Positions 47,475-61,457 of a stretch of DNA of 61,457 nt are shown here, one piece after another; the first letter of the stretch is position 1, and the number at the start of each line of letters is the position of its first letter. The translations under genes and the position numbers were made by a program. Below the pieces are notes generated by a model. The model searched no databases. It was not told where the DNA came from and saw only the letters and a list, made by a program, of their open reading frames with translations. The stretch is from Phocaeicola dorei (GTDB lineage Bacteria; Bacillota_I; Bacilli_A; RFN20; CAG-826). The DNA is taken from contig CAVGUB010000111.1 of assembly GCA_963632375.1 (NCBI GenBank), forward strand, positions 81,913 through 143,369. The letters run 5' to 3'.

Positions 47475-47487
47475 AATGGCATCGATG

Positions 47488-47599: not shown

Positions 47600-47627
47600 A
47601 AGTTTAACAAATTAAAACAATATAACA

Positions 47628-48074: not shown

Positions 48075-48075
48075 T

Positions 48076-48228: not shown

Positions 48229-48238
48229 GAGTGGTTTT
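48214..48238. terminator. Bidirectional hairpin terminator
   Basis: AAAACCACTC gttaa GAGTGGTTTT, between convergent genes. Confidence 0.65.
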
Positions 48239-48401
48239 ATTTTGTTTTATATTAAATGTAATTCTGCATCAACAACTTCACGTTGTACAATTTGTTGTAA
48301 TTTCATATTATTTCATTTTAATAATACAAATATACAATAATTTTTGTACGGCGATGAGTAACAATGAGTTAACAGTTTATCTCTATCTATTATTATTGAC
48401 A

Positions 48402-48926
48402 CTAGTTTTGGATTGGTTCTGATTGAAATGTAACGATTAAATCTTTACGTTTTTTCAAGTCACCTTTTCAAAACATTTCTGGGTTGATAGTATATTCTCC
48501 TCTTAACGTTTTGATTTCACCTGTAGTTTTATCTACAGTTGATTCTGGATATAGTGCATGTACTTCAACCAATTGATTAATTGATTGCGTTAATGTACTT
48601 TTCTTGATATCAAGTTCAGCCATTATATCAACACGTCTTCCAGGTGATAGAGATACTTTACCTGTTTCCCATTCAGCGTATTCTAACAACTTATAAAGTA
48701 TTTTTAATGTTGTTAGGCTTTTAATACCATACATCCAACTAACACAGTTAAGAAATACCATATAAAATTTATCGTCATCATCGACTTTAAAGTTAATTTT
48801 CTTTTCTGTAGTTTGGACACGAGTTCTACCTTGTTCATCAATAACTTTTTGTTCTGATGAATATACTGTGAATTTTTTAGACATTTTTAAACTTTGTTTA
48901 TTTATAGTGATCTTTTGTTTATTCAA
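48402..48926 (-). CDS. Winged-helix DNA-binding protein (Rep/regulator-like)
   Basis: Track ORF 48468..48926. Its TGA (48468-48470) may be Trp, which extends the frame 22 codons to TAG 48402-48404. An iteron array lies upstream of its start. Confidence 0.5.
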
Positions 48927-48977
48927 AAATAAACAAAGTTTACGACTTTAACAAATAAAGTTTAAAAAAAAATAAAC

Positions 48978-49037
48978 AAAGTTAGCTCACAGTAGCCAAA
49001 AGTTAGCTCACAATGGTCGAAAGTTAGCTCACAATGG
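48978..49037. repeat. Three direct repeats at 21-bp period (iteron-like)
   Basis: AAAGTTAGCTCACA(G/A)T(A/G)G at 48978, 48999 and 49020. The AAATAAACAAAGTT motif also recurs, once inverted, around the gene start. Confidence 0.75.
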
Positions 49038-49129
49038 ACATTTTTCTTCGTTAATTATCTAGTATGTAAATACTTAGATAGTTTTCTCTTCTATATATAA
49101 TTAGTTTAATCAAAAAATACAAAACAACA

Positions 49130-49522
49130 ATGAAAACATTTGAACAATTCAAAGCATGGCTGAAAGACATTCACAGGTATGAATTCTTTACAAGCTTCAT
49201 GGAACCAAACGTCGATCCTTGTGATTTTTATCGCCAGTATGGCGAAAAATCAATTCTGGTAGCATCTAAACATGTACCCTGTGAAAAAGATTACTATGAG
49301 TTGAGAAGACTCGACATAATGTTTAGAGGGTTCCTAAACGGATATCCTGTATATGTACTTGATACAAAGAAGACTATAATAGCTAGCCTTTATAAGTCTG
49401 ACGATGTTACAAGTTCGGTTATCCGTGAGTTCAGGAGTTTATACCCAGGTGCGGAATTTGACGAAGATTGTTATGCTGTTTATGCATATAAACAGGAGAA
49501 AATTCTTCGAAAAATTGAGTAA
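49130..49522 (+). CDS. Hypothetical protein (130 aa)
   Basis: Intact ORF, TAA stop. Confidence 0.6.
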   Translation: MKTFEQFKAWLKDIHRYEFFTSFMEPNVDPCDFYRQYGEKSILVASKHVPCEKDYYELRRLDIMFRGFLNGYPVYVLDTKKTIIASLYKSDDVTSSVIREFRSLYPGAEFDEDCYAVYAYKQEKILRKIE

Positions 49523-49525
49523 AAA

Positions 49526-49578
49526 ATGGGGCAAAAACAGGCGTAGACATCACTCTATGCCTGTTTTCCCATTTTTTT
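49526..49578 (+). terminator. Intrinsic terminator
   Basis: ATGGGGCAAAAACAGGC ... GCCTGTTTTCCCAT followed by T7. Confidence 0.65.
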
Positions 49579-49827
49579 AATCTTCCTTTTTTCAAAAAAA
49601 ATATGGAATATTATTCATACCTCATTTTGAAAAACTCCAAACCCTATGGGGTTCGTCGTTTTTCAAATCCAAATGCTGTAAACTTCTACATTAAATACAC
49701 ATTACCGCGTATTTGTGCAGCTAAATATTCATACATATGTTTTTCTTATTCGAAATCTTAATCGGTTTTATTTTGTTTTGTTTGTCTATATTTTTTATAG
49801 TCGCAATATTTATACAATCATTATTTC

Positions 49828-49974
49828 ATGACAAGAAAAATTAAAGTGACTCGTAAAATCAAAGTGATTAACGAGCAAGGAAAAGAAACTTTTATACTTT
49901 CTACTTTTCCATGTAAAGTAAATGCTGCTGTTCCATTTGATCATAATATGGTGAAATATGAAAGGGCATTGTAG
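49828..49974 (+). CDS. Small basic ORF (48 aa)
   Basis: ATG 49828, TAG 49972-49974. Overlaps the next ORF by 17 nt. Confidence 0.3.
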   Translation: MTRKIKVTRKIKVINEQGKETFILSTFPCKVNAAVPFDHNMVKYERAL

Positions 49975-50299
49975 TCTTTATTCTTTTGACTCAGGAAAAC
50001 AATTTCTTGGTTATACTACTTCTTCTGAAGTTATAACCTTTCCTGAGGCTTATCCTATTACTATGGATATTTCAGATGTAAAACCTTCACACTATCCAGA
50101 TCTTGAATTAATCAATCTGGATGAACTTTTTACAACTAAAAGAACTACTGATAAAAGATTGGCTGAAGAACATATCACAACATTCACTGATTTGTACTAT
50201 TCCAATTACCTTATCAAACTTAATCTTCTTAAAAAGCCTGCAAATATCCGCCAACTTGTGTTAAACAAATATGCAGATGTGATGGAATATGAAGATTAA
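49958..50299 (+). CDS. Hypothetical protein (113 aa)
   Basis: Intact ORF. Overlaps the clpP start. Confidence 0.55.
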   Translation: MKGHCSLYSFDSGKQFLGYTTSSEVITFPEAYPITMDISDVKPSHYPDLELINLDELFTTKRTTDKRLAEEHITTFTDLYYSNYLIKLNLLKKPANIRQLVLNKYADVMEYED

Positions 50300-50867
50300 A
50301 GACTATTTAATATCTCCAACAATAATTGAAGAACGCAAACTTAACGTTACTTCAATTAGCGTGTTTGATCGTTTGTTAATGGATCGTATCATCTTTCTTG
50401 GTACAGAAATCGATGACGATGTTGCGAACATCATTCAGGCACAATTACTTTACTTATCCTCTTTGTCTTCTGAGGATATTACTCTTTACATTAACTCTCC
50501 AGGAGGTAGTGTTACTGCTGGTTTAGGTATCTATGATACTATTCAACACATTAAACCAAAAGTAAATACAATTTGTACTGGTTTAGCAGCTTCTATGGCT
50601 GCTGTTCTTCTTTGTTCTGGTAATACTCGTTCTGCATTACCACATTCAAAAATGATGATTCATCAGCCAATGTCTGCAGTTGCAGGTCAAGCATCTGATA
50701 TCATTATTGAAGCTGAAGAAATTAAAAAATGTAAAGATGAACTTGCAAAACTAATAGCACATCATTGTAAACAAGACTTAATCAAAGTTCTTAAAGACAT
50801 AGATCGTGACTTTTGGTTAACTGCAAGTGAAGCTGTTCAATATGGACTCATAGATAAAGTCCTTTAA
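50289..50867 (+). CDS. clpP: ATP-dependent Clp protease proteolytic subunit ClpP
   Basis: RIIFLGTEIDDDVANIIQAQLLYL...LYINSPGGSVTAGLGIYDTIQ...GLAASMAA...MIHQP...WLTASEAVQYGLIDKV aligns along its whole length with cellular ClpP, including the Ser and His catalytic motifs. Confidence 0.9.
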   Translation: MKIKDYLISPTIIEERKLNVTSISVFDRLLMDRIIFLGTEIDDDVANIIQAQLLYLSSLSSEDITLYINSPGGSVTAGLGIYDTIQHIKPKVNTICTGLAASMAAVLLCSGNTRSALPHSKMMIHQPMSAVAGQASDIIIEAEEIKKCKDELAKLIAHHCKQDLIKVLKDIDRDFWLTASEAVQYGLIDKVL

Positions 50868-51162
50868 AACTACAAATCATCCTGTAATGACGGGACAAAA
50901 TAGTGCTTCGTAGCATTGACACAAACCTAGGTGAAAGTTGATGTACTGCATGAATCCAAATATGTTTATTGGCCAAATGATAATAGGATTCGTTCTTTAC
51001 AGTTAAAACATGATAATACTGTACAGATTATATTGTAGTTTGGTGTGGAGAAGGTGATACTTCTCCACATTTCTAATAGAAGGTTTTGTCAGAACCTCCG
51101 TTCTCTATAATACCGATTTTCATTTATTAACGCCTACTTTTTCACGAATAAATCGGTATTTA

Positions 51163-51226
51163 AATATGTTAGTTTAGTGGTAAAACAAACTTTTAGTTTA
51201 CATAGGTTCGATTCCTATACATATTT
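51163..51226 (+). ncRNA. tRNA-like gene with truncated anticodon arm (tRNA pseudogene or mimic)
   Basis: Acceptor AATATGT/ACATATT, D arm GTTT-AGTGGTA-AAAC and T arm ATAGG-TTCGATT-CCTAT are canonical. Only 15 nt lie between the D and T arms, folding as AAACT-TTT-AGTTT (5-bp stem, 3-nt loop). Total length 64 nt. Confidence 0.5.
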
Positions 51227-51244
51227 CTAAAAACAACACAAATT

Positions 51245-51490
51245 ATGGAAATAGTGTTAACAGAAGGTTGTGTAGTTTGGGGTACAACCATCAATGGAAA
51301 AGATATTAAAGATTACTCCAAAGAAGAATTAAAAGATATAATTCTTAACATCTTTAATAAAAAAGATTTCTCTGAATCAGATTACAATGAAATCTTGTCT
51401 GAAATCTTACATATAGCAGGAACATATAATTATTGTTACACCTGTGAAGAATGTGGTGATTCTGTTTGCGAATATAAATTATCAATATAA
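51245..51490 (+). CDS. Hypothetical protein (81 aa) with C-terminal CxxC pairs
   Basis: Intact ORF with CYTCEECGDSVC. Confidence 0.55.
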   Translation: MEIVLTEGCVVWGTTINGKDIKDYSKEELKDIILNIFNKKDFSESDYNEILSEILHIAGTYNYCYTCEECGDSVCEYKLSI

Positions 51491-51966
51491 TGAATATAGC
51501 TTTAGTTGCACATGATGTAAGAAAAAAAGAACTTCTTGAATGGGTCAAATATAATTGGGCTACATTATCAGAACATAATCTATATGCTACCGGTACTACT
51601 GGTAAACTTATATCTGATATTGAAGTTGATTTAGATGACTTAAAAGGAGTTTCTTATCCTTATTGTCCCTTCTTAGGTAAAGTTAATCGTGTATTATCTG
51701 GACCTTTAGGAGGAGATCAACAAATTGGAGCATTAATCGCTGAAGGTGATATTGATGTTCTAATTTTCTTTTGTGATAATCTTGCAGTACAAGGACATCA
51801 AAATGATGTTAGTGCACTATCAAGATTAGCTTCCCTTTATAATATCGCATTTGCTACCAATAGAACAACTGCTGATATGATACTCACATCTCCATTATTT
51901 GATAATCCAAATTATGAGAGAATTATTCCTAAATCTATTGACAACTATAAAAACCGGAAATTATAA
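51490..51966 (+). CDS. mgsA: Methylglyoxal synthase
   Basis: IALVAHD...LYATGTTG...LSGPLGGDQQIGALIAEGDIDVLIFFCD...GHQNDV.AL.RLA..YNIAFATNRTTAD matches E. coli MgsA motif for motif, including the catalytic His/Asp positions. One roughly 20-aa insertion. Confidence 0.85.
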   Translation: MNIALVAHDVRKKELLEWVKYNWATLSEHNLYATGTTGKLISDIEVDLDDLKGVSYPYCPFLGKVNRVLSGPLGGDQQIGALIAEGDIDVLIFFCDNLAVQGHQNDVSALSRLASLYNIAFATNRTTADMILTSPLFDNPNYERIIPKSIDNYKNRKL

Positions 51967-52115
51967 TGACATATAAAGTAACTTTTTCAGAAAAAGGTCA
52001 TAAAATGCAAACCACTTATACTAAAGACAATGCATCTGAACAAGAAATTGTTGATTGGTTTGGTTTAAATGAATCAGATATTGATTGGTATAAAATAGAA
52101 AAATTATGCGAATAA
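51966..52115 (+). CDS. Small ORF (49 aa)
   Basis: ATG overlaps the mgsA TAA as TAATG. TAA at 52113-52115. Confidence 0.35.
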   Translation: MTYKVTFSEKGHKMQTTYTKDNASEQEIVDWFGLNESDIDWYKIEKLCE

Positions 52116-52393
52116 CATTTGATACAATCAACCAAGTTCCTAAAAATGAACAAGGTTTACTTCTTGCACTTTATAAAGATTTAGATGAATTAAATTCTAA
52201 AATTCATAAAAAACTTTATTTTGTTTGGGAAGATACTCATACAGAATTTTCTCCAGAATGGTGTGATCCTTGTCCCGATTATTATCACATGTATATCATT
52301 TACTGTGATAATGAATCTATCGGTTCTTATATGACCATTGAAGAATTAGATTATGCAATGTTACTACTTCATGATTTTGTAGACATAATATAA
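52106..52393 (+). CDS. Hypothetical protein (95 aa)
   Basis: Intact ORF. Confidence 0.55.
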   Translation: MRITFDTINQVPKNEQGLLLALYKDLDELNSKIHKKLYFVWEDTHTEFSPEWCDPCPDYYHMYIIYCDNESIGSYMTIEELDYAMLLLHDFVDII

Positions 52394-52710
52394 TGAGAGA
52401 ATTACATTTTTATTCTAATTTATGTGATATTGATAATGTATCAGAATGGGATTTAGATACAATGTGTACTGATTATGTAACTACGAAAAAAGCCATTGAA
52501 GATTCTTCTGAACGTATTGTTAAAACTACTCAAATGAGTTTTCTTATCAATACTTGGGATTATATTGACTCTGGTTTTGTTGTGTTTTTGCATAATAATT
52601 CTAATTGTTATATAATAAAAGAACACATGCCTGAAATAAGTAAAGATATTACACGTAGTATGAATATCTTAAAGCTTTATTTAGGTAATACATTTGGAGA
52701 AATATGTTAA
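52393..52710 (+). CDS. Hypothetical protein (105 aa)
   Basis: Intact ORF. Start overlaps the previous stop. Confidence 0.55.
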   Translation: MRELHFYSNLCDIDNVSEWDLDTMCTDYVTTKKAIEDSSERIVKTTQMSFLINTWDYIDSGFVVFLHNNSNCYIIKEHMPEISKDITRSMNILKLYLGNTFGEIC

Positions 52711-53213
52711 ATATACCATATTATAATAATCCAATTCCTCTAGAATTATATAATAAATTAACTTTATATGGTTTTTCGTTACAAGAATCTTGTCCAACTT
52801 ATAAACTTGTTTTAGATTGGTTAAATACTAAACAAATTTATATGACATTTTTCTCTTGGTACGTTGACGAAGATTATCAATGGATTTATAAAATAGTATA
52901 TTTTGTTAAAAACAATCCAAATCTTCATGTAGAAACGGGAATTGGTACAACATTTGCAAATACATTTGAACAATGTATTGATTACTTAATAAACTTAAAT
53001 ATTATAACAATGTTAAAAGAATATTTAGTTAATGTTACATATATAACCGTAATTCCAGTTAAAGTTACGGCTAGTAATGATGAAGATGCTGAGGATATGG
53101 CTGTATCTAAAGCAGAAAACATCAATTCACTAGAAAATGTATCAATGTATTTTGATAGTACAGAAATAATGAAAATTACACCTTTGGATAAAATTGATTT
53201 TGAAGGTGAATAA
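52704..53213 (+). CDS. Hypothetical protein (169 aa)
   Basis: Intact ORF. Confidence 0.55.
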   Translation: MLNIPYYNNPIPLELYNKLTLYGFSLQESCPTYKLVLDWLNTKQIYMTFFSWYVDEDYQWIYKIVYFVKNNPNLHVETGIGTTFANTFEQCIDYLINLNIITMLKEYLVNVTYITVIPVKVTASNDEDAEDMAVSKAENINSLENVSMYFDSTEIMKITPLDKIDFEGE

Positions 53214-53282
53214 TATATCGCAGTGATGCGTTGTTCATAATTGTTTGATTTGTTTGCGAGAAGTGTTTAGCACTTCTCTGAT

Positions 53283-53366
53283 AGCTCTATGTCGAAATAG
53301 GTAGCCGAGTCAGATTTAGGATCTGATGTTTGTAAAAACGTAAGGGTTCGATTCCCTTTAGAGCTA
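53283..53366 (+). tRNA. tRNA-Leu (anticodon TAG), class II
   Basis: Acceptor AGCTCTA/TAGAGCT. Anticodon arm TCAGA-TTTAGGA-TCTGA with anticodon at 53317-53319. Long variable arm (GTTT-GTAA-AAAC). T arm AAGGG-TTCGATT-CCCTT. Discriminator A. Confidence 0.85.
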
Positions 53367-53393
53367 CAAGAGTTTTTATATACTCATTTTTTA

Positions 53394-53559
53394 GGGTTAC
53401 TTCAGCATAAAATTTTTATTAATGTATATTTTTATTAATTTTTAACGTTACGTAACCCGATTATTTTTGGAATAGTTTCAGCATGTTTATTTTTGTATTC
53501 TTACATAAACATAGAGGGGGCTGCCCTATTCCGTATCAAAGTCCCCTCTATGTTTTTTT
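53394..53559 (+). ncRNA. Structured RNA candidate between tRNA-Leu and the DUF2828 gene
   Basis: Stem GGGTTAC (53394-400)/GTAACCC (53452-58). GGAATAG (53469-75) is complementary to CTATTCC (53526-32), which sits inside the loop of the 11-bp terminator hairpin ACATAGAGGGG/CCCCTCTATGT (53509-53553) plus T7. TTCAGCAT is repeated. Confidence 0.35.
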
Positions 53560-53583
53560 GATAATTAAAAAAATTAAAAAAAT

Positions 53584-54978
53584 ATGGATAAATTTCTTGA
53601 AGCAATCAGTACAAAAAATACTTATACTGATAACGGAGCTTTAACTAACAGTACTTCTTTAAATAAGTGCTTAGACTTTTTTTCAATAGCAGGTAATCAT
53701 ATTGAGAATATAGAATCTTTTGAAGCAGCTTATGGAGAAGATCCACAACTTGCTTTAAGAATTTTATTTTGGAGTAGAGATTGTAGAGGTGGTGCTGGTG
53801 CTCGTAAAAACTTTATTGCTGTAATGAAGAAACTTCAAGTTGAAAAACCTGATGTTTTTTCTAAAGTCTTTAAGTTTATACCTGAATTTGGCTATTGGAA
53901 AGATATTTACAATCTAAAGCCCACACAAGAAGTTGTTAGTTTTGTTGCTAAAACATTAAAGAATGATACAGATCATTCTTTATGTGCTAAATACTGTCCT
54001 CGTAAAGGAGAATGGTTTTATCATCTTCGTGTTCGTTTTAAAATGTCTTTAGCTCAATTTAGACATTTTATTGTTAAGAAAACTCAAGTAGTTGAAAACC
54101 AAATATGCAAGAAAGAATGGAATGAAATAGAATATTCTTCTGTTCCTTCTGTGGCAAATCTTCGTTACAAAGAAATATTTACAAAATATGATTTTAAACG
54201 TTATAGGGAGTATATTAAATCTGTTCTTAAAGGAGAAAATAAGATTAATTCCTCTGTTTTGTTTCCAAATCAAATATTTCATAATTGGGACATTGGTTTA
54301 AGAAAGGATGGGGATACTGCTAAAGCCTTGTGGGATAATCTTCCTAATTATATGGAAGGTTGTACAGAAAGAATTCTTCCTGTATGTGATGTGTCAGGTT
54401 CTATGTGTGGTACTCCATTAGAAGTTTCTATTGCTTTGGGTTGTTATATTTCAGAACGTAATGAAGGACCTTTTAAAGATGCTTTTATAACGTTTAGTGG
54501 AAAACCTCAAATTAATATCTTAACTGGTGATATTATATCACGTTTCTCGCAGTTATCTAATGCAGATTGGGGATATAATACAAATCTTCAAGCTGTATTT
54601 GATTTGATTTTAAAACGAGCATTGGAAAACAATCTTTCTAATGACGATATGCCATCTAAGATATTGATCATAAGTGATATGCAATTTGACAAAGCCTTGA
54701 AAAATAGAGAAAGATTTGGAAATCCCGAAATCACTAATTATGAGGCAATTAAAGATGCATATGCTTCGTATGGTTATAACCTTCCTGGTATAATCTTTTG
54801 GAATGTTAATGGAGATGCTGGTAAAGTTCCTGTTACAATGAAAGACTTTAACACTGCCCTTGTGTCAGGATATTCTCCTAGTATTCTAACATCCATTCTT
54901 AAAGGTAAAGTATTAACTCCAATAGACGTTATGCTAAATACCGTAAATAGTGAACGATATAAAAACATAAAATTATAA
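53584..54978 (+). CDS. DUF2828-like protein with C-terminal vWA (MIDAS DxSxS) domain
   Basis: N-terminus ...YTDNGALTNSTSLNKCLDFF...LALRILFWSRDCRGGAGARKNF and VCDVSGSMCG fit the DUF2828/vWA architecture as I recall it. Confidence 0.6.
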   Translation: MDKFLEAISTKNTYTDNGALTNSTSLNKCLDFFSIAGNHIENIESFEAAYGEDPQLALRILFWSRDCRGGAGARKNFIAVMKKLQVEKPDVFSKVFKFIPEFGYWKDIYNLKPTQEVVSFVAKTLKNDTDHSLCAKYCPRKGEWFYHLRVRFKMSLAQFRHFIVKKTQVVENQICKKEWNEIEYSSVPSVANLRYKEIFTKYDFKRYREYIKSVLKGENKINSSVLFPNQIFHNWDIGLRKDGDTAKALWDNLPNYMEGCTERILPVCDVSGSMCGTPLEVSIALGCYISERNEGPFKDAFITFSGKPQINILTGDIISRFSQLSNADWGYNTNLQAVFDLILKRALENNLSNDDMPSKILIISDMQFDKALKNRERFGNPEITNYEAIKDAYASYGYNLPGIIFWNVNGDAGKVPVTMKDFNTALVSGYSPSILTSILKGKVLTPIDVMLNTVNSERYKNIKL

Positions 54979-55052
54979 AAATGGTATAAAAATTGAAGTA
55001 TATATAAAAATATAGAATGCCAGAATGATGAAATGGAAGCCATGAGGGACTT

Positions 55053-56035
55053 TTGCGGTAGACATAAAGATTTTTTGTCTTTGTGTTTGCCATATTCTAA
55101 ATTATTTTGTATATTTGTACGATCTTTTAACAATTAAATTTTATTAAAATGAAAAATAAGTACACAAAAGAAGATTTAGAAAATGTAGCAAAACAATGTT
55201 TGTCGTGACGACAAATGCTTTTACATTATGGATTAAGAGAGACTGGAGGAAATTATACAGCTATGCATAATAGATGTAAAAAATATGAGATAGATACTTC
55301 TCATTTTACTGGTCAGGGTTGAAATAAAGAAGGACATGAGAATTTTGCTGGTAATATAGATTTGCAAAAAAGATTCTCTATTCATAAGAAAAAACAACCT
55401 TCTTCTAAAACTAAAGAAGTTTTATTAATGCATAATTTAAAAGAAAATAAGTGTGAAATTTGTGGATGTACAGAATGACAAGGAAAACCAATTATTCTTC
55501 AATTACATCATAAAAATGGTAATCCATTTGATGATAGATTGGAGAATCTTCAAATTCTTTGTCCTAATTGTCACTCACAAACGGATACTTATTGTAAAAG
55601 ACATAAAATACGAAAATCTATAAATTTGAGTGCACTGAAGGAAACTTCGGATGTAGAACTACCCTAATTCGGTGAAAATCCTAAATCCTAATCAAGGTCG
55701 TAATGAAAACACGACGTTAAATAAACTAGGAAGTTGGATTGGACAACGCCGAGCTAAATTGAATATTAAAGAAGAGACACACGGAAGGCCCGTCAATTAG
55801 TATTCATAAATGTGTAGAGCACATAGAGGTAGAACCTAAGTTAGAAATTATGAGTATCCCCAGACTCGGTGACAGGATTATATCCTCAGGGACCAATAAG
55901 GGTGTAAGGAGAAAGTAACTTGCAAGATTTCTAATACGGTTAAGACATGTGCCGGACTACAACAACTTGAATGCGAAATTTTACAGCACCATTTAAGACT
56001 GGTTCAAGTTGGCTATGGTAACATAGAGTAGTAGG
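55053..56035 (+). mobile_element. Putative group I intron in tRNA-Leu(UAA) carrying an HNH ORF
   Basis: 983 nt sit between anticodon positions 34 and 35. It ends in G and has a CTATG-GTAA-CATAG hairpin (GNRA tetraloop, 56013-56026) 9 nt from its 3' end. About 370 nt of ORF-free sequence follow the ORF. Confidence 0.55.
55149..55667 (+). CDS. HNH homing endonuclease (172 aa)
   Basis: ...YEIDTSHFTGQG-W-NKEGH... and LQLHHKNGNPFDDRLENLQILCPNCHSQTD (HNH). Three in-frame TGA at 55206, 55320 and 55476. TAA at 55665-55667. Confidence 0.85.
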
Positions 56036-56091
56036 AAAATCCCTTGGGCAGCAATGCCCGTGTGGGTTCGAATCCCACTTCTGGTACTTAT

Positions 56092-56162
56092 TGAGATGTA
56101 GTATAATGGTAATACAAAAGATTTTGGTTCTTTTATTCAAGGTTCGAATCCTTGCATCTCAA
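56092..56162 (+). tRNA. tRNA-Gln (anticodon TTG)
   Basis: Acceptor TGAGATG/CATCTCA. D arm GTAT-AATGGTA-ATAC. Anticodon arm AAAGA-TTTTGGT-TCTTT. T arm CAAGG-TTCGAAT-CCTTG. Confidence 0.85.
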
Positions 56163-56196
56163 CGAGTTTTATACTCATGGTATTTTTATTTGACAA

Positions 56197-56231
56197 ATGG
56201 AGTATGCTGTGAAGTATACTCCATTTTTTTT
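56197..56231 (+). terminator. Intrinsic terminator after the tRNA cluster
   Basis: ATGGAGTAT gctgtgaagt ATACTCCAT followed by T8. Confidence 0.65.
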
Positions 56232-56446
56232 AATTTTATTAAAATTATATAAAATGGAATTTACTTTATCAAATATTAAATTTTGGTTATCATCTAATAT
56301 TAAAGATTATCTCATTTTAAGATATTCTCAAAATGATGTTTAACCTGATATCGAAATTAATGATATGTTCAATAATTTATTAAAAGCTTTGAACATTAAG
56401 AATACTGATATAAATCAAGAACTTATATTTAAAAATTTTAAATAAA

Positions 56447-56779
56447 ATGGATAATTCAGAACTTAAATCATTGATGTATGAATATGTAGTTGATTTGTTA
56501 AGCTATGAAGATTATCACAATTTCGGAAGTCCTGAGAAATTTCATAAATGGGTTGATGAAAATTATGAGCCAATAAAAAAGTCAAATCTTATCAAAGGAC
56601 AGATTTATGATGGAATTTGTAGAAATGCCTCAAGAGCAACTTGGGATGGTGAAAAGTTTCATTATGAAAGAACAAAATTTAGAAGAACTTATGATGAAGT
56701 AATAAATCATTATGAAGATGACGATGGTTATGGTTATGATGTTTTTGTCCCCATAAAAAGAATTAACGATTGTGATTAA
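56447..56779 (+). CDS. Hypothetical protein (110 aa)
   Basis: Intact ORF. Confidence 0.55.
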   Translation: MDNSELKSLMYEYVVDLLSYEDYHNFGSPEKFHKWVDENYEPIKKSNLIKGQIYDGICRNASRATWDGEKFHYERTKFRRTYDEVINHYEDDDGYGYDVFVPIKRINDCD

Positions 56780-56893
56780 GTTATATTTCATATCTTTACG
56801 GCAACAGAAATTGACGTATAGCCGAAATGAATTATAATAATTAAATTTTATAAAAAGTTTAAAGTAACATTTACGTTTAAAAAATAATGAGCA

Positions 56894-57268
56894 ATGAGAC
56901 AAGAACCATTTGAAAGAGACCATCCAATAGCAGCAAAGATATACGAGGAATACAAGAAGGATTTAACATTGGAACCCGATCATATCAGACATATGCTTGC
57001 TGACCTTGAAATAGAGTGTGATACCCAGTTTCACGGAGAATCATCTGTAAAGATTAAAGAACTTGAGAAAAAGGTTAAGGAACTTGAAGCACTAAATGAT
57101 TATCAGCAGAAACCGGAATCTGAATATACTGCGACATGGCTTGCTGCGAAATTAAATGCAATTGGATATAAGGGCAAACTAACAAGGGAAACACCCTTCT
57201 TTAATAGTGCAGTGTCAGACTCTAAACGAGTAGGATTATACATTGAAACACTTAATATTGGGGAATAA
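56894..57268 (+). CDS. Hypothetical protein (124 aa)
   Basis: Intact ORF. Confidence 0.55.
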   Translation: MRQEPFERDHPIAAKIYEEYKKDLTLEPDHIRHMLADLEIECDTQFHGESSVKIKELEKKVKELEALNDYQQKPESEYTATWLAAKLNAIGYKGKLTRETPFFNSAVSDSKRVGLYIETLNIGE

Positions 57269-57279
57269 CATTATAAGTT

Positions 57280-57690
57280 ATGAACACAAATGATTTAATG
57301 CTTAATGATTGGATTCTTCATATAGATGAAAAGGAGCCTGGCCAAGTTTATGAAATACGTGACGATTTTATTGAGATAGATATTGATTTATCTCAAGAAG
57401 GTCAAGAAGGTCAAGAATGTTGGATTGACGGAGACCCCGATGATTTTGAAGGAATACCATTGACAGAAGAGATGTTGAAATTAAATGGATGGGATAAGTA
57501 TCCATTTCAAAACTATTTGTCTAACAAGAAAGTAATAGAGTTTTGTTTGCATAATGCCGGCATTGGGTTTTATTGTTCTAATGAAAACGGAGAAAATGAT
57601 ATTGTAAATATTCACTATGTCCATGAACTTCAGCACTTGTTACGAATTTTTGGATATGGCGATTTAGCAAATGATTTTAAGATTAAATAA
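57280..57690 (+). CDS. Hypothetical protein (136 aa)
   Basis: Intact ORF. Confidence 0.55.
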   Translation: MNTNDLMLNDWILHIDEKEPGQVYEIRDDFIEIDIDLSQEGQEGQECWIDGDPDDFEGIPLTEEMLKLNGWDKYPFQNYLSNKKVIEFCLHNAGIGFYCSNENGENDIVNIHYVHELQHLLRIFGYGDLANDFKIK

Positions 57691-57840
57691 TTATGTTAAA
57701 CATTGCAGAAATTTTGAAAGATTGTCCTAAAGGGACAAAACTTTATTCACCAGCATTTGGAACAGTAGCGTTAGACAAGGTAGAGGATAATAATTGGATT
57801 TCTATATAATGGGAAATAGTAAAACAAACGAAGAGTAGTT

Positions 57841-58119
57841 ATGAGGACAGTAATACAGTGTACACTATGTCGCAGTGGCTCTATTAACATTCTCCGTAAA
57901 CTGGAGAAGGAAGTTATGGAAGATGGAAGCGAACGCGGTTATTCAACCATTTTAATTCCAAGTGCAGAGGCTCCAGTATATGTAGTAGCTCAGTACAATG
58001 ATTGCGATAAGATGGTAGATACATTTAGCAACAGAGATGAAGGTGAGATAGTCATTAGTAAGGAAGAGTGGGAGGAACGAGTGAATGAATTTATTGAATC
58101 AGTCAGAAAATTACTATAG
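57841..58119 (+). CDS. Hypothetical protein (92 aa)
   Basis: Intact ORF, TAG stop. Confidence 0.5.
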   Translation: MRTVIQCTLCRSGSINILRKLEKEVMEDGSERGYSTILIPSAEAPVYVVAQYNDCDKMVDTFSNRDEGEIVISKEEWEERVNEFIESVRKLL

Positions 58120-58185
58120 TAAGTAGTCCTGTCCATATCGCAATTCCTTACAACGATGACACAAAACATCTCGTAGGTACAACAG

Positions 58186-58380
58186 ATGATTGTCCGGAAT
58201 ATTATAAATGATGAGAAGATTATGGAGAATAAATATACTCTTGAGGAAGTACTCTCTATCCTTGATGCTATGTTTATGGATTATTCTGACATATCGGTTG
58301 ATGATTGGTTCAGAGATAACCCAAGATTGTTTCAAGGGCGAGAGGAATTTATTGAAAGAATGAAATCAAAATATGAATAA
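58186..58380 (+). CDS. Hypothetical protein (64 aa)
   Basis: Intact ORF. The minus-strand ORF 58114..58335 overlapping it looks spurious. Confidence 0.45.
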   Translation: MIVRNIINDEKIMENKYTLEEVLSILDAMFMDYSDISVDDWFRDNPRLFQGREEFIERMKSKYE

Positions 58381-58383
58381 AAT

Positions 58384-58989
58384 ATGAAATATGTATTTTT
58401 TATTTGTTTAGGATTACTTTGTATACTGATTGCAGGGTACATTTTAGTCTCATTCTATAGATTGGGACGTATCCTTTTCTTTAGACACAAGCATAAAAAT
58501 CTATCTTGGGCTGCTGCTGATATTGGCAATTTAGACCATGATATATTTGTACCAGGAGGCCTTAGTGTTATTGAAGAAGGCTCTATGAGTGGTTGGGACG
58601 CAACAGTAGGCCCAAGTCCTGCAGGATGGCCAATTGCTACAACTATGACTTGGAATTATAGATTGTACAAATCGGTAATGTACTACTATTTTCAGGTAGA
58701 TTACCATGAAAGAGTTCTATTTTGGACTTTTGATTATCCTTATGCGGTTTGTAAAATTCCCAAAAGATATGTTGGCAATATAGATACCGATAGAGAGGTG
58801 AGAATGGATACTCTTTGGGATATTACATATCAACTATTGCATGGACGATATGAATTGGAGAAATATTTTCCGAAACCTAAATGTGAGCATATCAACGGCC
58901 ATTCTGTAAAACTTGAAGGCGTATATGAATGTACATTTAAAGATTACCTTGTGATATGTAATACAGAAGATAGTGGTGATAATTGGTAA
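58384..58989 (+). CDS. Membrane-anchored hypothetical protein (201 aa)
   Basis: N-terminal hydrophobic helix. Seven Trp, all encoded TGG. Confidence 0.55.
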   Translation: MKYVFFICLGLLCILIAGYILVSFYRLGRILFFRHKHKNLSWAAADIGNLDHDIFVPGGLSVIEEGSMSGWDATVGPSPAGWPIATTMTWNYRLYKSVMYYYFQVDYHERVLFWTFDYPYAVCKIPKRYVGNIDTDREVRMDTLWDITYQLLHGRYELEKYFPKPKCEHINGHSVKLEGVYECTFKDYLVICNTEDSGDNW

Positions 58990-59115
58990 AATAATATTAA
59001 GTTTAGAACTTATATTACTCTTAGCTTCATGTTCTCCCGTTGAAAATACAAGAGTTATAATAGTTACACCTAATCAATTAGATTCACTTGTAAATAATTT
59101 AAAAATAGAATAATT

Positions 59116-59727
59116 ATGGGTTATTCAACAACTTTTAGATTAAAAGGTGAAATTGATGAACGATTTCAACCAAATAAATATAGGGTTCCAAATGTATCCA
59201 AATCTATGTCAATTTTAACTGCAATTTGTTTACATAAATTTGTTATTGAGACTAAAACATTTTGTTTTTATACAACATTTGAACAAATTTATGAAAATTT
59301 AAGATTTGCGTTACATGAACTTATTTGTGATGTTGAACAAGTTGTTAAACAAAATTTTGTTTTAGATAAAAATAAAGAAATTTATTTTTACGGTTGGCAA
59401 TATTCAGATGAATCTTCACGTTTAGGATTTGATACACTTGAAGAATTTGAAAAATGTATTCTTGATCAATTGTTTCAAATAGTTGCTTGTCCTACTTCTA
59501 CAAGATTTGATAAAAATCATGAAGATTTTAACGAAAAAGAAGACCAAATATCAGATATTCTCAATGATATCGAATATGAAGTTAAAGAAATTGTAACATT
59601 TAATTTTGTACAATATTATCGTGAGCATCCAGAACTTGCAGATGAAGATGACGGCATAAAACATTTCTTCCCTAAAAAAGAAACTGAAAAACAATCTGAA
59701 GAAAAAACAGATGGGACAAACAAATAA
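59116..59727 (+). CDS. Hypothetical protein (203 aa)
   Basis: Intact ORF. Confidence 0.55.
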   Translation: MGYSTTFRLKGEIDERFQPNKYRVPNVSKSMSILTAICLHKFVIETKTFCFYTTFEQIYENLRFALHELICDVEQVVKQNFVLDKNKEIYFYGWQYSDESSRLGFDTLEEFEKCILDQLFQIVACPTSTRFDKNHEDFNEKEDQISDILNDIEYEVKEIVTFNFVQYYREHPELADEDDGIKHFFPKKETEKQSEEKTDGTNK

Positions 59728-60193
59728 TATCATATTTCTTGATATTGATGGGGTTTTGAATTACACAAAGTGGTATCAAGGTCTTATTCATTATAAGTAT
59801 CTTGATGAGGAAGATCTTGATCCAATTTGTGTAGAACGTGTTAAAATCATTTGTGAAATTTGTGATGCTAAAATTGTTATATCATCTGATTGGAGATTGG
59901 ATTGGGATGTCACTTTGAAACGATTGTCTAAATTTGGTTTAGATAATAATTTTATTATTGATAAAACACCATTTTTAAATTTTTTAGAAGTTAAAAACAT
60001 TAATCGAGGTAAAGAAATAGACGAATGGTTAAAAAACAATAAATGTGATAATTATCTAATTTTAGATGATATGCGAGGTATTCAGAAAAACTTTACTAAA
60101 GAGCAAATAAAGCATTTAGTTTGGATAGATCCATTTTATGGATTGACAAATAAACACGTTAAACAATCATTAAATATCTTTAATATCTTGTAA
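59711..60193 (+). CDS. HAD-like hydrolase
   Basis: The N-terminal IIFLDIDGVLN motif and later ISSDWR / LILDD segments fit a HAD-fold phosphatase. Confidence 0.5.
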   Translation: MGQTNNIIFLDIDGVLNYTKWYQGLIHYKYLDEEDLDPICVERVKIICEICDAKIVISSDWRLDWDVTLKRLSKFGLDNNFIIDKTPFLNFLEVKNINRGKEIDEWLKNNKCDNYLILDDMRGIQKNFTKEQIKHLVWIDPFYGLTNKHVKQSLNIFNIL

Positions 60194-60194
60194 T

Positions 60195-60701
60195 ATGAAA
60201 AAAATCTTTTTAGCATTTTTTGTTGTTTTGTTTTGTTCTTGTACACCACATCATTTTGATTTTAAAGGTGTTGAACTTGATGGGACAATTCAACAATTCA
60301 CAAGAAATGCTATTAAATATGGATGGGAGCCTACAGGATATGTAGATTCACTTCCTGTGTTTAAGACAACATTATTTGGTGAAAAAGTAATTGTTACTCC
60401 ATTGTTATATGCAGATGAATTTGTCTATGGTGTTGCCATTACTAACGGCAAAATCTATAATGATTTTTTGCCAAGTCAGTTGCATAAAGAAATGGTTAAT
60501 AAGTTCAGTGGAACAGGTGTCATACCTCAATACGAGGAAGGCTATGATTTTCATAAAACAACTTTTACTTTTAAGAAAGGTAGAATAGTTATATATACTT
60601 GTTCTCCAACACCAACAACTTTTGGAGCATCTAATTTTGTTTATTATATTGATAATCAAAATTATGACAATATGGAATATTATCAGAAAAATGATATGTA
60701 A
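60195..60701 (+). CDS. Lipoprotein
   Basis: MKKIFLAFFVVLFCSCTPHH is a signal peptide followed by a lipobox-like Cys. Confidence 0.6.
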   Translation: MKKIFLAFFVVLFCSCTPHHFDFKGVELDGTIQQFTRNAIKYGWEPTGYVDSLPVFKTTLFGEKVIVTPLLYADEFVYGVAITNGKIYNDFLPSQLHKEMVNKFSGTGVIPQYEEGYDFHKTTFTFKKGRIVIYTCSPTPTTFGASNFVYYIDNQNYDNMEYYQKNDM

Positions 60702-60703
60702 TT

Positions 60704-61168
60704 ATGGGGACTAATGTTTATTGGATTAAGCCTATTACAGAGCTTGAGAAAGACGAATTGAAAAAAGTAGTTGATTCTGTTGACAATTATGAGGATCTTG
60801 TCGAAAAGATGGATGATGTACTTAAGTATCAGTATACCTATCTATTAGGTGACTCAACTCATAAGGTCCATATCGGCAAACGGAGTTCCGGGTGGAAGTT
60901 CTTGTTTTCCCTGGGACTGCGGAATCATCTCGACATCGACCATGATTTCAAGGAGAACCTGAGGAAATTCCTGGAAACGGGATTTATCGAGGACGAATAC
61001 GGTGAAAGATATGATTTTGACAAGTTCTGGCAGGAGTTCGTCGTAGATTTCCAAAATGGCATCGATTCAGAGGAATATAACAGAAAAAACCCTAATCAGA
61101 TGTATCCGGCAACTGATACATATCATTGTGGGTACAGGTTTACAAGTAGGGAAGTAGATTTTTCTTAA
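60704..61168 (+). CDS. Hypothetical protein (154 aa)
   Basis: Intact ORF, locally higher G+C. Confidence 0.55.
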   Translation: MGTNVYWIKPITELEKDELKKVVDSVDNYEDLVEKMDDVLKYQYTYLLGDSTHKVHIGKRSSGWKFLFSLGLRNHLDIDHDFKENLRKFLETGFIEDEYGERYDFDKFWQEFVVDFQNGIDSEEYNRKNPNQMYPATDTYHCGYRFTSREVDFS

Positions 61169-61182
61169 CTTAATAAGTATTT

Positions 61183-61401
61183 TTGAAAATGAATTGGATA
61201 ACTGAATTCTCAACAGCAGTTGATTGTTTAAAAAATCTTTCAATTACGAAAAAAGAAATTTTAGAAAGATTACAAAAAATTGACGAAGAAATTAGAATAA
61301 AACAAAATAATTTCGTAAATTTAAATAATGAAAAGGTTATCTCTTCTTTAGAAGAATTATATTTTTCTAAAGCTGTATTAGAAACAATACTTAACAAGTA
61401 G
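61183..61401 (+). CDS. Hypothetical coiled-coil protein (72 aa)
   Basis: Intact ORF, TAG stop. The minus-strand ORF 61170..61448 overlaps it and the following tRNA and looks spurious. Confidence 0.5.
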   Translation: MKMNWITEFSTAVDCLKNLSITKKEILERLQKIDEEIRIKQNNFVNLNNEKVISSLEELYFSKAVLETILNK

Positions 61402-61407
61402 ACGAAT

Positions 61408-61457
61408 TGAGGTATGGTGTAATGGCAGCACAAGTGATTTTGGTTCACTTAGTCTAC
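61408..61457 (+). tRNA. tRNA-Gln (anticodon TTG), 3' end cut by the window edge
   Basis: Acceptor TGAGGTA. D arm GTGT-AATGGCA-GCAC. Anticodon arm AGTGA-TTTTGGT-TCACT. The T arm lies beyond the window. Confidence 0.7.

What the first reader, a model, noticed from the sequence alone, without database searches (positions are those of the whole stretch)
55019..56086. tRNA-Leu(UAA) split in its anticodon loop by a ~1 kb insertion carrying a recoded HNH endonuclease
The two tRNA halves are unambiguous. The acceptor strands GCCAGAA/TTCTGGT pair, as do the anticodon stem strands AGGGA/TCCCT. A long variable arm and a canonical T arm are present. The exon ends read GGGACTT | ... G | AAAATCCC. Plastid and cyanobacterial trnL(UAA) is split by its classic group I intron between nt 34 and 35 at GGACTT|AAAATCC, which is the same position. 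The insert ends in G and has a GNRA-capped hairpin 9 nt before the 3' junction, and it carries about 370 nt of ORF-free sequence after the HNH gene. An HNH-bearing intron at this ancient site in a phage tRNA is unusual. The endonuclease needs UGA=Trp to be made, whereas the tRNA it interrupts supplies UUA, a codon very common in this AT-rich genome.
Basis: partly seen in the sequence, partly recalled or inferred. Interest (0 to 1): 0.7.

Follow-up and report, generated by a model that had tools for sequence, protein, structure and literature searches.

The report
Self-splicing intron in phage tRNA gene
A gut phage's leucine tRNA gene is interrupted in its anticodon loop by a 983-base group I intron carrying a homing-endonuclease gene readable only when UGA means tryptophan; it belongs to a large, apparently undescribed intron family in tRNA genes of gut phages and Bacteroidales bacteria.

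Summary
tRNA-Leu(UAA) is split into 55019-55052 and 56036-56086 by a 983-nt insert (55053-56035). Joining CTT|AAAA gives a canonical 86-nt tRNA-Leu(UAA), the only junction that works. The insert is a group I intron. Rfam misses it in the full region and gives only a weak P4-P6 hit (21.6 bits, E 0.002). Homologues settle it. One passes Rfam's group I threshold (71.5 bits), and P2, P3, P7, P9.0 and P9a are supported by compensatory changes. The HNH gene therefore lies in the P1 loop, and its last 14 codons encode the guide sequence, P2 and P3. Its three UGA codons fall on Trp columns, two of them invariant. Neighbouring early genes use no UGA (0 TGA/40 TGG). Late genes use 70 TGA/29 TGG. The family has over 100 copies at position 34/35 of U34 tRNAs in crAss-like and Lak phages and in Bacteroidales chromosomes. 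The mechanism is classical and the UGA-gated endonuclease idea is published. I found no report of group I introns in phage tRNA genes. Splicing itself is untested.

The parts
55019..55052 (+). 5' exon of tRNA-Leu(UAA): acceptor 5' strand, D arm, anticodon stem 5' strand, C32 U33 U34
55053..56035 (+). Group I intron, 983 nt, inserted between tRNA positions 34 and 35
55057..55091 (+). 15-bp hairpin at the 5' end of the P1 loop. It is kept in the close relative L184. Its function is unknown.
   Evidence: (z -3.6)
55086..55117 (+). Candidate Bacteroidetes-type promoter (TTTG-N20-TATATTTG), ending 31 nt before the HNH ATG
   Evidence: 9 matches in the window against 4.0 expected, several of them just upstream of genes. 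Weak evidence, treated as inference.
55149..55667 (+). HNH homing-endonuclease ORF (172 aa) in the P1 loop. In-frame UGA at 55206-08, 55320-22 and 55476-78. The stop codon UAA (55665-67) lies in J3/4.
55628..55631 (+). Internal guide sequence GAGU. It forms P1 with exon ACUU (55049-55052), and U55052.G55628 is the wobble pair at the 5' splice site.
   Evidence: sequence; the same arrangement in Lak, IAS virus and more than 100 family members
55635..55650 (+). P2 hairpin CUGAAG-GAAA-CUUCGG (GNRA loop), inside the ORF
   Evidence: (6 of 6 pairs with compensatory changes)
55659..55663 (+). P3 5' strand CUACC, which pairs with GGUAG at 55828-55832
55668..55818 (+). P4-P6 domain. P4 is UUCGGU (55668-73) paired with GCCGAG (55748-53).
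   Evidence: (RF00028 local hit at 55669-55819, 21.6 bits, E 0.0022)
55819..55824 (+). P7 5' strand GCACAU, which pairs with AUGUGC at 55947-55952. It is preceded by bulged A55818 and the pair G55817-C55953.
   Evidence: Three pairs are changed on both sides relative to the family consensus GACUAU/AUAGUC.
55828..55832 (+). P3 3' strand GGUAG
55834..55940 (+). P8 with a long peripheral extension. ACC (55834-36) pairs with GGU (55938-40), and GUUAGAAAU (55840-48) pairs with AUUUCUAAU (55927-35).
55947..55952 (+). P7 3' strand AUGUGC
55956..56032 (+). P9 domain. The extended P9.0 helix ACUAC (55956-60) / GUAGU (56028-32) encloses P9 (55963-71 / 56003-11) and the GUAA-capped P9a (56013-56026).
   Evidence: (the ACCAC/GUGGU variants are compensatory)
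56035..56035 (+). Terminal G of the intron (omega G)
   Evidence: constant GUAGY-NN-G spacing in the family
56036..56086 (+). 3' exon of tRNA-Leu(UAA): A35 A36, anticodon stem 3' strand, long variable arm, T arm, acceptor 3' strand, A73

Best explanation
The region is a functional tRNA-Leu(UAA) gene of a TGA-recoded phage of gut Bacteroidota that is distantly related to crAss-like phages. It is interrupted between U34 and A35 by a mobile group I intron. After transcription, probably together with the adjacent tRNA-Gln up to the terminator at 56195-56226, the intron folds. Exon nucleotides A31-C32-U33-U34 pair with the guide sequence GAGU (55628-31) to form P1, with the U34.G wobble marking the 5' splice site. 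The conserved core (P3-P8, with the P3/P7 pseudoknot) binds guanosine. The terminal G56035 then enters the same site, and the exons are ligated to give the anticodon loop CUUAAAA. The product decodes UUA, the commonest Leu codon of this phage. The P1 loop carries an HNH homing-endonuclease gene. All three of its Trp codons are UGA, so full-length protein can be made only once UGA is read as Trp, which happens late in infection. The enzyme would then cut intron-less tRNA-Leu alleles of co-infecting relatives and spread the intron. The last 14 codons of the ORF are also the guide sequence, P2 and P3. The UGA codons would therefore also keep early ribosomes out of the ribozyme core. Shown here: the split tRNA, the unique junction, homology to group I introns, covariation-supported helices, and UGA on Trp columns. 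Inferred: self-splicing activity, late timing of expression, homing, and shielding of the core from ribosomes.
For: Spliced product:
- Joining the exons gives tRNA-Leu(taa), and the junction is unique.
- Intron-less tRNA-Leu genes align across the junction without gaps.

Homologues at the same tRNA site:
- Lak-C1 and Lak-B1 carry an ORF-less homologue.
- L184 and L186 carry the same HNH gene.
- About 100 further copies are known.
- The homologous intron in the IAS virus primase gene restores the reading frame at AGA CTT|AAA ATT.

Group I identity:
- The family member L023 scores 71.5 bits on RF00028, above the gathering score of 50. It matches the window at E 8e-7.
- A profile built without the window hits 55623-55842 (E 1e-10) and 55934-56041 (E 3e-5).
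- The window's own P4-P6 domain gives RF00028 21.6 bits, E 0.0022.

Covariation on a 20-sequence alignment with the window's structure:
- 84.6% of cells are paired, against 44% or less for slid controls.
- 27 pairs have changes on both sides, against 11-16 in the controls.
- 0 of 500 shuffles reach the observed values.

Comparison with the close relative L184:
- The ORF is 92% identical.
- P2 and three P7 pairs are fully compensated.

HNH gene:
- It matches PHROG 10822 at E 2e-42.
- W58 and W110 are invariant and W20 is aromatic or hydrophobic in 30 homologues.
- Bacterial homologues use TGG, whereas the window uses 3 TGA and 0 TGG.

Codon use:
- Early plus-strand genes have 0 TGA and 40 TGG.
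- Late genes have 70 TGA and 29 TGG.
- TTA makes up 46% of Leu codons in late genes.
Against: - There are no RNA data, so splicing is inferred.
- The window does not reach Rfam's gathering score. The first scans over 1.25 kb and over the whole window found nothing for RF00028.
- P1 is only 4 bp and must close a 575-nt loop.
- The guide sequence was fixed by my search pattern, so P1 has no covariation support.
- The window's P7 sequence is unique in the family, although it is fully paired.
- No UGA suppressor tRNA is present in the 61-kb window, so the source of UGA decoding is not seen.
- The promoter call rests on a short motif.
Confidence: 0.82

Rival explanations
1. The intron is a decaying ribozyme and the tRNA is a pseudogene. 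The locus persists only as a carrier of the selfish HNH gene, or as a relic.
For: Rfam's group I model does not reach threshold on the window. The P7 sequence is atypical. P1 is short and spans a long loop.
Against: All core helices are intact, and differences from relatives are compensatory (P2, P3, P7 and P9.0). Both tRNA halves give a perfect cloverleaf. The ORF is intact, with its Trp columns preserved. Rfam misses almost all clearly intact family members, since only 1 of 17 loci tested passes. Its failure here is therefore uninformative.
Confidence: 0.08
2. It is a true group I intron, but it does not splice on its own in vivo. It needs a protein cofactor, either a host factor or the HNH protein acting as a maturase. 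In that case mature tRNA-Leu(UAA) would appear only late, coupled to the code switch.
For: P1 is only 4 bp and is separated by 575 nt. The peripheral P5, P6, P8 and P9 extensions diverge fast, with 61% identity to L184 against 92% for the ORF. Many organellar group I introns need such cofactors (general knowledge).
Against: ORF-less minimal relatives of 230-290 nt keep the same core and sit in essential chromosomal tRNA-Leu genes, which argues for autonomous splicing of the core. The GNRA loops L2 and L9a are conserved, as in self-sufficient compact bacterial tRNA introns. HNH maturases are not established.
Confidence: 0.12
3. Splicing uses another junction and yields a tRNA with a different anticodon. 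CT|GAAAA would give GAA (Phe), and CTTT|AAA would give UUA, an ochre suppressor, as ARAGORN's intron mode proposes.
For: ARAGORN -i labels the locus tRNA-Stop(tta) with an intron at position 37. Two consecutive G residues end the intron, and four T residues follow the anticodon stem.
Against: ARAGORN assumes the eukaryal and archaeal intron position. The U.G pair of P1 falls on U34. The terminal G is always the third base after GUAGY in the family. A junction ending in A (CTTT|AAA) lacks a terminal G. The body has a long variable arm and A73, which are Leu features. The 34|35 rule gives canonical tRNAs for 107 of 134 family members and an in-frame primase in IAS virus.
Confidence: 0.03

Closest known systems
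[quoted passage not shown]
   Same: The host gene is the same, and the insertion point between U34 and A35 is the same. P1 is likewise formed by anticodon-loop nucleotides with a ...GAG guide sequence. The core is compact, with a terminal G.
   Different: The host here is a phage. This copy carries an HNH gene in the P1 loop and long P5, P6, P8 and P9 extensions. Direct sequence or subgroup (IC3) relatedness to the cyanobacterial intron was not tested here. The family also occupies Lys(UUU), Arg(UCU), Ser(UGA), Leu(UAG) and Ile(UAU) tRNAs and protein-coding genes.
[quoted passage not shown]
   Same: It is a bacterial-type tRNA group I intron that carries its own homing endonuclease targeting the tRNA gene.
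   Different: The tRNA, the insertion position and the endonuclease family are all different. I recall that enzyme as not being an HNH protein, which I did not check here. It has no stop-codon recoding.
Recoded group I intron endonuclease in TGA-recoded 'Agate' phages (Borges et al. preprint 10.1101/2021.08.26.457843)
   Same: An intron endonuclease sits in an early, standard-code region and prefers TGA over TGG for Trp. It is proposed to be made only late in infection.
   Different: That report speaks of 'an early gene' and an mRNA, and no tRNA host is described. Whether this window is an Agate phage is unknown. The overlap of the ORF end with the guide sequence, P2 and P3 was not discussed there.
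Group I introns in crAss-like phage protein-coding genes (Yutin et al. 2021, PMC7886860), for example the IAS virus primase
   Same: The IAS virus primase intron is a direct homologue, with 84% identity over 166 nt of the core and the same P1, P2, P3, P7 and P9.0 helices. Intron ORFs containing TGA are noted in that paper.
   Different: Those introns interrupt protein-coding genes. tRNA hosts were not reported, because tRNAs were called with tRNAscan-SE bacterial models, which cannot see such introns.
'Enigmatic' tRNA introns of Lak megaphages (Devoto et al. 2019, PMC6784885)
   Same: They are introns in phage tRNA genes in the same ecosystem, and Lak phages also carry this intron family.
   Different: The reported Lak introns are short (for example 93 nt in tRNA-Tyr), were found with eukaryotic tRNAscan settings and are not classed as group I. 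The Lak tRNA-Leu(UAA) with two group I introns found here is not in that paper's text or supplements.

Membership tests
Group I self-splicing intron | P1 helix between the 5' exon end and an internal guide sequence, with a U.G wobble at the splice site | tested here: met
   Exon ACUU (55049-52) pairs with GAGU (55628-31), and U55052.G55628 is the wobble pair. The arrangement is identical in Lak, IAS virus and more than 100 relatives. There is no covariation test, because the guide sequence was fixed by the search pattern.
Group I self-splicing intron | Guanosine as the last intron nucleotide | tested here: met
   G56035. The GUAGY-NN-G spacing is constant across the family.
Group I self-splicing intron | Conserved core helices P3-P8 in the canonical order, with the P3/P7 pseudoknot | tested here: met
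   One search gives 84.6% paired against 44% or less in slid controls, 27 pairs with changes on both sides, and 0 of 500 shuffles reaching the observed values. The helix order was transferred from the RF00028 alignment of homologue L023.
Group I self-splicing intron | P7 guanosine-binding helix with a conserved G-C pair next to a bulged A | tested here: inconclusive
   The family-conserved G55817-C55953, bulged A55818 and G55819-C55952 are retained in the window, and only the three distal pairs changed, all with compensation. Assigning these as the G-binding pair rests on my recalled analogy to Tetrahymena G264-C311.
Group I self-splicing intron | Score on Rfam RF00028 at or above its gathering score (a detection criterion rather than a defining trait) | tested here: inconclusive
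   The window gives no hit. It gives 21.6 bits and E 0.0022 for P4-P6 when only 436 nt are searched. Homologue L023 scores 71.5 bits against a threshold of 50. The other 16 loci scanned gave no hit at the gathering score.
Group I self-splicing intron | GTP-dependent self-splicing | not testable with these tools
   This needs in vitro transcription and splicing, or RNA sequencing.
tRNA-Leu(UAA) intron of cyanobacteria and plastids (subgroup IC3) | Insertion between U34 and A35 of tRNA-Leu(UAA) | tested here: met
tRNA-Leu(UAA) intron of cyanobacteria and plastids (subgroup IC3) | Sequence or subgroup relatedness to the cyanobacterial intron | not tested
   No cyanobacterial or plastid intron sequence was available in the collections used. 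The compact core with GNRA loops L2 and L9a is only a resemblance.
HNH homing endonuclease | HNH catalytic motif with flanking Cys pairs | tested here: met
   PHROG 10822 at E 2e-42. Pfam HNH_3 gives only 17.2 bits, below its cut-off. Residues C102, C105, H120, H121, N133, C138, C141 and H142 are invariant.
HNH homing endonuclease | Encoded within an intron and cleaves the intron-less allele | not testable with these tools
   The location in the P1 loop is shown. Cleavage specificity is not. The same HNH-plus-leader cassette (92% nt identity over the ORF, 86% over the P1-loop leader) sits in different tRNA-Leu genes, which is consistent with mobility.
Stop-codon-recoded (TGA to Trp) late genes of gut phages | In-frame TGA at conserved Trp positions, confined to a subset of genes | tested here: met
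Stop-codon-recoded (TGA to Trp) late genes of gut phages | A phage-encoded UGA suppressor tRNA | tested here: inconclusive
   None was found in this 61-kb window. The window is only part of the genome.

The most novel reading that the evidence does not exclude
This intron is one copy of a large family that Rfam does not detect and that I could not find described. The family colonises the 34/35 site of tRNAs with U34 (Leu UAA and UAG, Lys UUU, Arg UCU, Ser UGA, Ile UAU) in crAss-like phages and Lak megaphages, and it also sits in chromosomal tRNA-Leu genes of their Bacteroidales hosts. These would be the first group I introns documented in phage tRNA genes. In recoded phages the UGA codons of the endonuclease gene would do two jobs. 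They would delay the nuclease until the code switch, and they would stop early ribosomes before they reach the guide sequence, P2 and P3, which the ORF end encodes.
Probability: 0.5. Interest if true: 0.7.

Novelty: new member of a known kind. Interest (0 to 1): 0.6.

Why it matters
- A 2014 review states that all phage group I introns then known lie in protein-coding genes, despite the many phage tRNA genes (PMC3984707). This locus and its relatives would overturn that picture.
- It would give a mechanism for at least some of the puzzling split or missing tRNAs in gut phage genomes.
- Standard tRNA finders and Rfam miss these genes, so the tRNA repertoires of crAss-like and Lak phages and of Bacteroidales are under-counted. 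That includes tRNA-Leu(UAA), which reads the commonest Leu codon of this phage.
- The same intron family occurs in host chromosomes and in phages, which points to intron traffic between host and phage tRNA genes.
- The locus is a compact, testable case of stop-codon recoding used to time a selfish nuclease and possibly to protect a ribozyme from ribosomes.

Tried and rejected
- Rfam at gathering score on the whole window, and at E<=10 on 54950-56200, found no group I hit. Only a 436-nt search gave a weak P4-P6 hit.
- ARAGORN's intron mode found the tRNA ends but placed the intron at position 37 and called it tRNA-Stop(tta). I rejected this because ARAGORN assumes non-group-I intron positions.
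- My first splice was off by one base and gave a 6-nt loop. This was corrected.
- The first collection pattern, ACCTAAGTTA-N90-120-GACTACAA, returned 29 stretches, of which 20 were chance matches by nhmmer.
- RNAalifold proposed a pairing of UGC (just 3' of the guide sequence) with GYA (just 5' of the terminal G) and a local UAGU/ACUA hairpin. The first cannot be tested, because those columns were fixed by the search pattern and it is absent in L023. The second conflicts with P7. Neither was adopted.
- A perfect 9-bp hairpin with the first UGA codon in its loop (55197-55217) is identical in L184 but absent in L186, so there is no evidence that it is functional.
- Low-threshold ARAGORN runs looking for a UGA suppressor gave only implausible calls.
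- A PDB sequence search with the HNH profile found nothing.
- A full covariance model of the family was not built, because a model of about 240 positions would exceed the calibration limit.
- Four literature searches for group I introns in phage or Bacteroidetes tRNA genes found no report. A fifth found only the short, unclassified Lak tRNA introns of Devoto et al.
Full report
**1. Observation**

- GCCAGAATGATGAAATGGAAGCCATGAGGGACTT occupies 55019-55052.
- AAAATCCCTTGGGCAGCAATGCCCGTGTGGGTTCGAATCCCACTTCTGGTA occupies 56036-56086.
- They are separated by 983 nt (55053-56035) that end in G.

ARAGORN and Rfam call only tRNA-Leu(UAG) at 53283, tRNA-Gln(UUG) at 56092 and a tRNA-like element at 51163 on the unspliced window.

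Joining CTT|AAAA gives an 86-nt tRNA-Leu(taa) with a perfect cloverleaf and a long variable arm. I tried every upstream 'TT' within 1.5 kb as the end of the 5' exon. Exactly one produced a tRNA with the junction between positions 34 and 35.

Intron-less tRNA-Leu(UAA) genes from other loci align across the junction without gaps. One is 100% identical over spliced positions 26-49, and the crAss-like phage cr273_1 tRNA-Leu gene (locus L005) is 88% identical over positions 25-75.

**2. What the insert is**

Rfam's group I model (RF00028) found nothing on the whole window or on 54950-56200, even at E<=10. Related sequences resolved the question.
- BLAST against phage records matched the 3' part of the insert to Lak megaphages. 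There an ORF-less 340-348-nt insert sits at the same place in a tRNA-Leu(UAA) gene.
- BLAST also matched IAS virus, a crAss-like phage, where the homologous element separates two CDSs that are both annotated 'DNA primase'. Removing the IAS element at ...AGA CTT|AAA ATT... joins the two CDSs in frame. This independently supports the splice-site definition.
- Two pattern scans then recovered a large family. There were 90 stretches in IMG/VR viral contigs and 67 in GTDB genomes, mostly Bacteroidales MAGs.
- One member, L023, scores 71.5 bits on RF00028 against a gathering score of 50. That alignment gives the helix order P1, P2, P3, P4, P5, P6, P7, P3', P8, P7', P9.
- L023 matches the window's insert at E 8e-7. 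A profile built only from 32 other family members hits 55623-55842 (E 1e-10) and 55934-56041 (E 3e-5).
- When only 55610-56045 is searched, RF00028 gives a local hit on the window's own P4-P6 domain (21.6 bits, E 0.0022).

**3. Structure in the window**

| Element | Coordinates and sequence |
|---|---|
| P1 | exon ACUU 55049-52 with GAGU 55628-31 (U55052.G55628 wobble) |
| P2 | 55635-40 / 55645-50, GAAA loop |
| P3 | CUACC 55659-63 / GGUAG 55828-32 |
| J3/4 | CUAA 55664-67 |
| P4 | UUCGGU 55668-73 / GCCGAG 55748-53 |
| P5-P6 | up to about 55818 |
| P7 | GCACAU 55819-24 / AUGUGC 55947-52, preceded by G55817-C55953 and bulged A55818 |
| P8 | 55834-48 / 55927-40, with a long extension |
| extended P9.0 | ACUAC 55956-60 / GUAGU 56028-32 |
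| P9 | 55963-71 / 56003-11 |
| P9a | 56013-26, GUAA loop |
| terminal G | 56035 |

I tested this structure on a 20-sequence alignment of the window's subtype.
- 84.6% of cells are paired, against 35-44% when the partners are slid.
- 27 pairs have changes on both sides, against 11-16 in the slid controls.
- None of 500 shuffles reaches the observed values.
- P2 (6 of 6 pairs), P3, P7, P9.0 (ACUAC/GUAGU against ACCAC/GUGGU) and P9a all covary.

A separate alignment of 32 minimal (220-255-nt) members gave 40 of 53 RNAalifold pairs with compensatory changes.

P1 could not be tested by covariation, because my search pattern fixed GAGUGC.

The window's P7 differs from the family consensus GACUAU/AUAGUC at three pairs, and all three are compensated. 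P2 differs from the close relative L184 at most positions and still pairs.

**4. The endonuclease gene**

The ORF 55149-55667 encodes 172 aa if the three in-frame TGA codons (55206, 55320, 55476) are read as Trp.
- It matches HNH endonuclease families: PHROG 10822 at E 2e-42 and Pfam HNH_3 weakly.
- It has over 2,000 homologues at E <= 1e-5.
- In an alignment of 30 homologues, W58 and W110 are invariant and position 20 is W, F, I or Y.
- The relatives L184 (90% aa identity) and L186 have TGA at the same three codons.
- Homologues in the same intron position in bacterial MAGs use TGG.

The ORF lies entirely in the P1 loop. Its last 14 codons (..NLSALKETSDVELP*) are the guide sequence, P2 and P3, and its stop codon is the UAA of the invariant CCCUAA (J3/4). 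This explains why the C-terminal 'LSAQ.E..DVE' is conserved in the protein family.

Upstream of the ATG lie a conserved 15-bp hairpin (55057-91) and a Bacteroidetes-type promoter motif (55086-55117). The promoter reading is an inference.

**5. Genomic setting**

The window is a phage.
- The product of 23352-25553 matches the P22-type portal family.
- The product of 25803-28022 matches annotated large terminases. It is 46% identical to an unclassified gut phage and about 30% to crAss-like phages.
- The other long minus-strand ORFs look like late structural genes but were not searched.

The long minus-strand ORFs (to about 44 kb) contain 70 TGA against 29 TGG. The plus-strand genes from 45 kb onward, among which the tRNA cluster lies, contain 0 TGA against 40 TGG. 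The HNH ORF has 3 TGA and 0 TGG. It is therefore a late-coded gene embedded in an early-coded module.

TTA is the commonest Leu codon, at 46% of Leu codons in late genes and 34% in early genes.

tRNA-Gln starts 6 nt after the tRNA-Leu discriminator base. A strong terminator follows at 56195-56226.

No UGA suppressor tRNA was found in the window.

**6. The family**

I spliced 134 members using the rule '5' exon ends ..UU34 | 35'. This gave canonical tRNAs for 107 of them.

| Host tRNA | Copies |
|---|---|
| Leu(UAA) | 89 |
| Lys(UUU) | 8 |
| Arg(UCU) | 4 |
| Ser(UGA) | 2 |
| Leu(UAG) | 2 |
| Ile(UAU) | 2 |

Intron lengths range from 231 to 1109 nt.

All hosts share C32-U33-U34, which is what the GAGU guide sequence needs.

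At least one copy is chromosomal in a bacterium. In a 3.3-Mb Bacteroidales chromosome (L167) the intron-containing tRNA-Leu lies between genes for S-adenosylhomocysteine hydrolase, a short-chain dehydrogenase and a GH20 hexosaminidase.

Rfam detected only one locus (L023) of the 17 I scanned at the gathering score. ARAGORN without intron mode reports none of these tRNAs.

**7. Comparison with what is known**

A 2014 review states that all phage group I introns then known lie in protein-coding genes, despite the many phage tRNA genes (PMC3984707).

Devoto et al. 2019 reported short 'enigmatic' tRNA introns in Lak phages. They did not class them as group I and did not mention tRNA-Leu(UAA).

Yutin et al. 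2021 described group I introns in crAss-like protein-coding genes, including the primase, and intron ORFs containing TGA.

Borges et al. described a group I intron endonuclease in an early gene of TGA-recoded 'Agate' phages. It prefers TGA, and they proposed that it is made only late.

So the recoding idea is published and the intron type is classical. The phage tRNA host, the family itself and the overlap of the ORF end with the ribozyme core were not found in the literature I could search.

**8. Verdict**

I rate it a new member of a known kind, with family-level implications that make it more interesting than a single extra intron.

What remains unproven:
- self-splicing activity
- the timing of HNH expression
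- homing
- the proposed shielding of the ribozyme core from ribosomes by the UGA codons

Noticed in passing
L002 (Lak-C1, MK250029.1) 1853-2586; L004 (Lak-B1) about 1320-2065: The Lak megaphage tRNA-Leu(UAA) gene carries two group I introns. One of 308-309 nt lies in the D loop (RF00028 41.8 bits, E 4.5e-9). The other, of 340-348 nt, lies at 34/35 and belongs to the window's family. Removing both gives a perfect 87-nt tRNA-Leu(taa). It is not mentioned in the Lak paper's text or supplements.
   Followed up: partly
L167 (OZ007033.1, 3.3-Mb Bacteroidales chromosome) 4400-5300; L144; many other GTDB loci L117-L183: The same intron family, with or without the HNH gene, interrupts chromosomal tRNA-Leu(UAA) genes of gut and rumen Bacteroidales, flanked by housekeeping genes. 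Standard tRNA finders report no tRNA there.
   Followed up: partly
L003 (IAS virus NC_049978.1) 2191-2789: The two CDSs annotated 'DNA primase' (gp027 and gp028) are exons of a single gene split by a 599-nt intron of this family. The exons join in frame at AGA CTT|AAA ATT.
   Followed up: yes
L066 4153-4585 compared with L053 4161-4637: L066 has a 5' exon identical to the tRNA-Arg(UCU) 5' half of L053 but a 3' exon of tRNA-Leu(UAA) type. This could be recombination between two intron copies or a chimeric assembly.
   Followed up: no
L013 2177-2433 (minus strand): An intron of this family lies in a tRNA whose exons read ACAGACUU|...GUAGCAG|ACUAAUCUGU. Either the position of the terminal G is occupied by A (which would give tRNA-Arg UCU), or splicing yields an 8-nt anticodon loop.
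   Followed up: no
window 51163-51226: A tRNA-like element scores 47.7 bits on Rfam tRNA. It has normal acceptor, D and T arms, but only about 8 nt where the 15-nt core of the anticodon arm should be. ARAGORN does not call it at default settings.
   Followed up: partly
window 1-44500 (minus strand) compared with 45000-61457 (plus strand): There is a sharp code boundary. The ten longest minus-strand ORFs, including the portal and large terminase, contain 70 in-frame TGA against 29 TGG. The plus-strand genes have 0 TGA against 40 TGG. No UGA suppressor tRNA lies in the window.
   Followed up: partly
window 55197-55217: A perfect 9-bp hairpin, UGUUUGUCG-UGA-CGACAAAUG, presents the first in-frame UGA of the HNH gene in its 3-nt loop and is followed by CUUUUAC. 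It is identical in L184 and absent in L186.
   Followed up: partly
window 53584-54978: The gene directly upstream of the tRNA-Leu gene encodes a DUF2828/DUF7788 protein (E 5e-52 and 2e-31). It ends 40 nt before the tRNA and has a Bacteroidetes-type promoter motif at 53466-53495.
   Followed up: no
alignment A2 columns 12-14 and 289-291 (window 55631-33 and 56031-33): RNAalifold pairs UGC, just after the guide sequence, with GYA, just before the terminal G. The C/U variation at the middle position always keeps a G-C or G.U pair. This competes with the last pairs of P9.0 and might reflect alternative conformations.
   Followed up: no
window 55019-56086 compared with L184 2867-3945: The relationship is mosaic. 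The HNH gene and its leader are 86-92% identical. The ribozyme periphery is only 61% identical, and the tRNA exons belong to different tRNA-Leu(UAA) genes. This suggests that the endonuclease cassette or the 5' part of the intron moves independently.
   Followed up: partly
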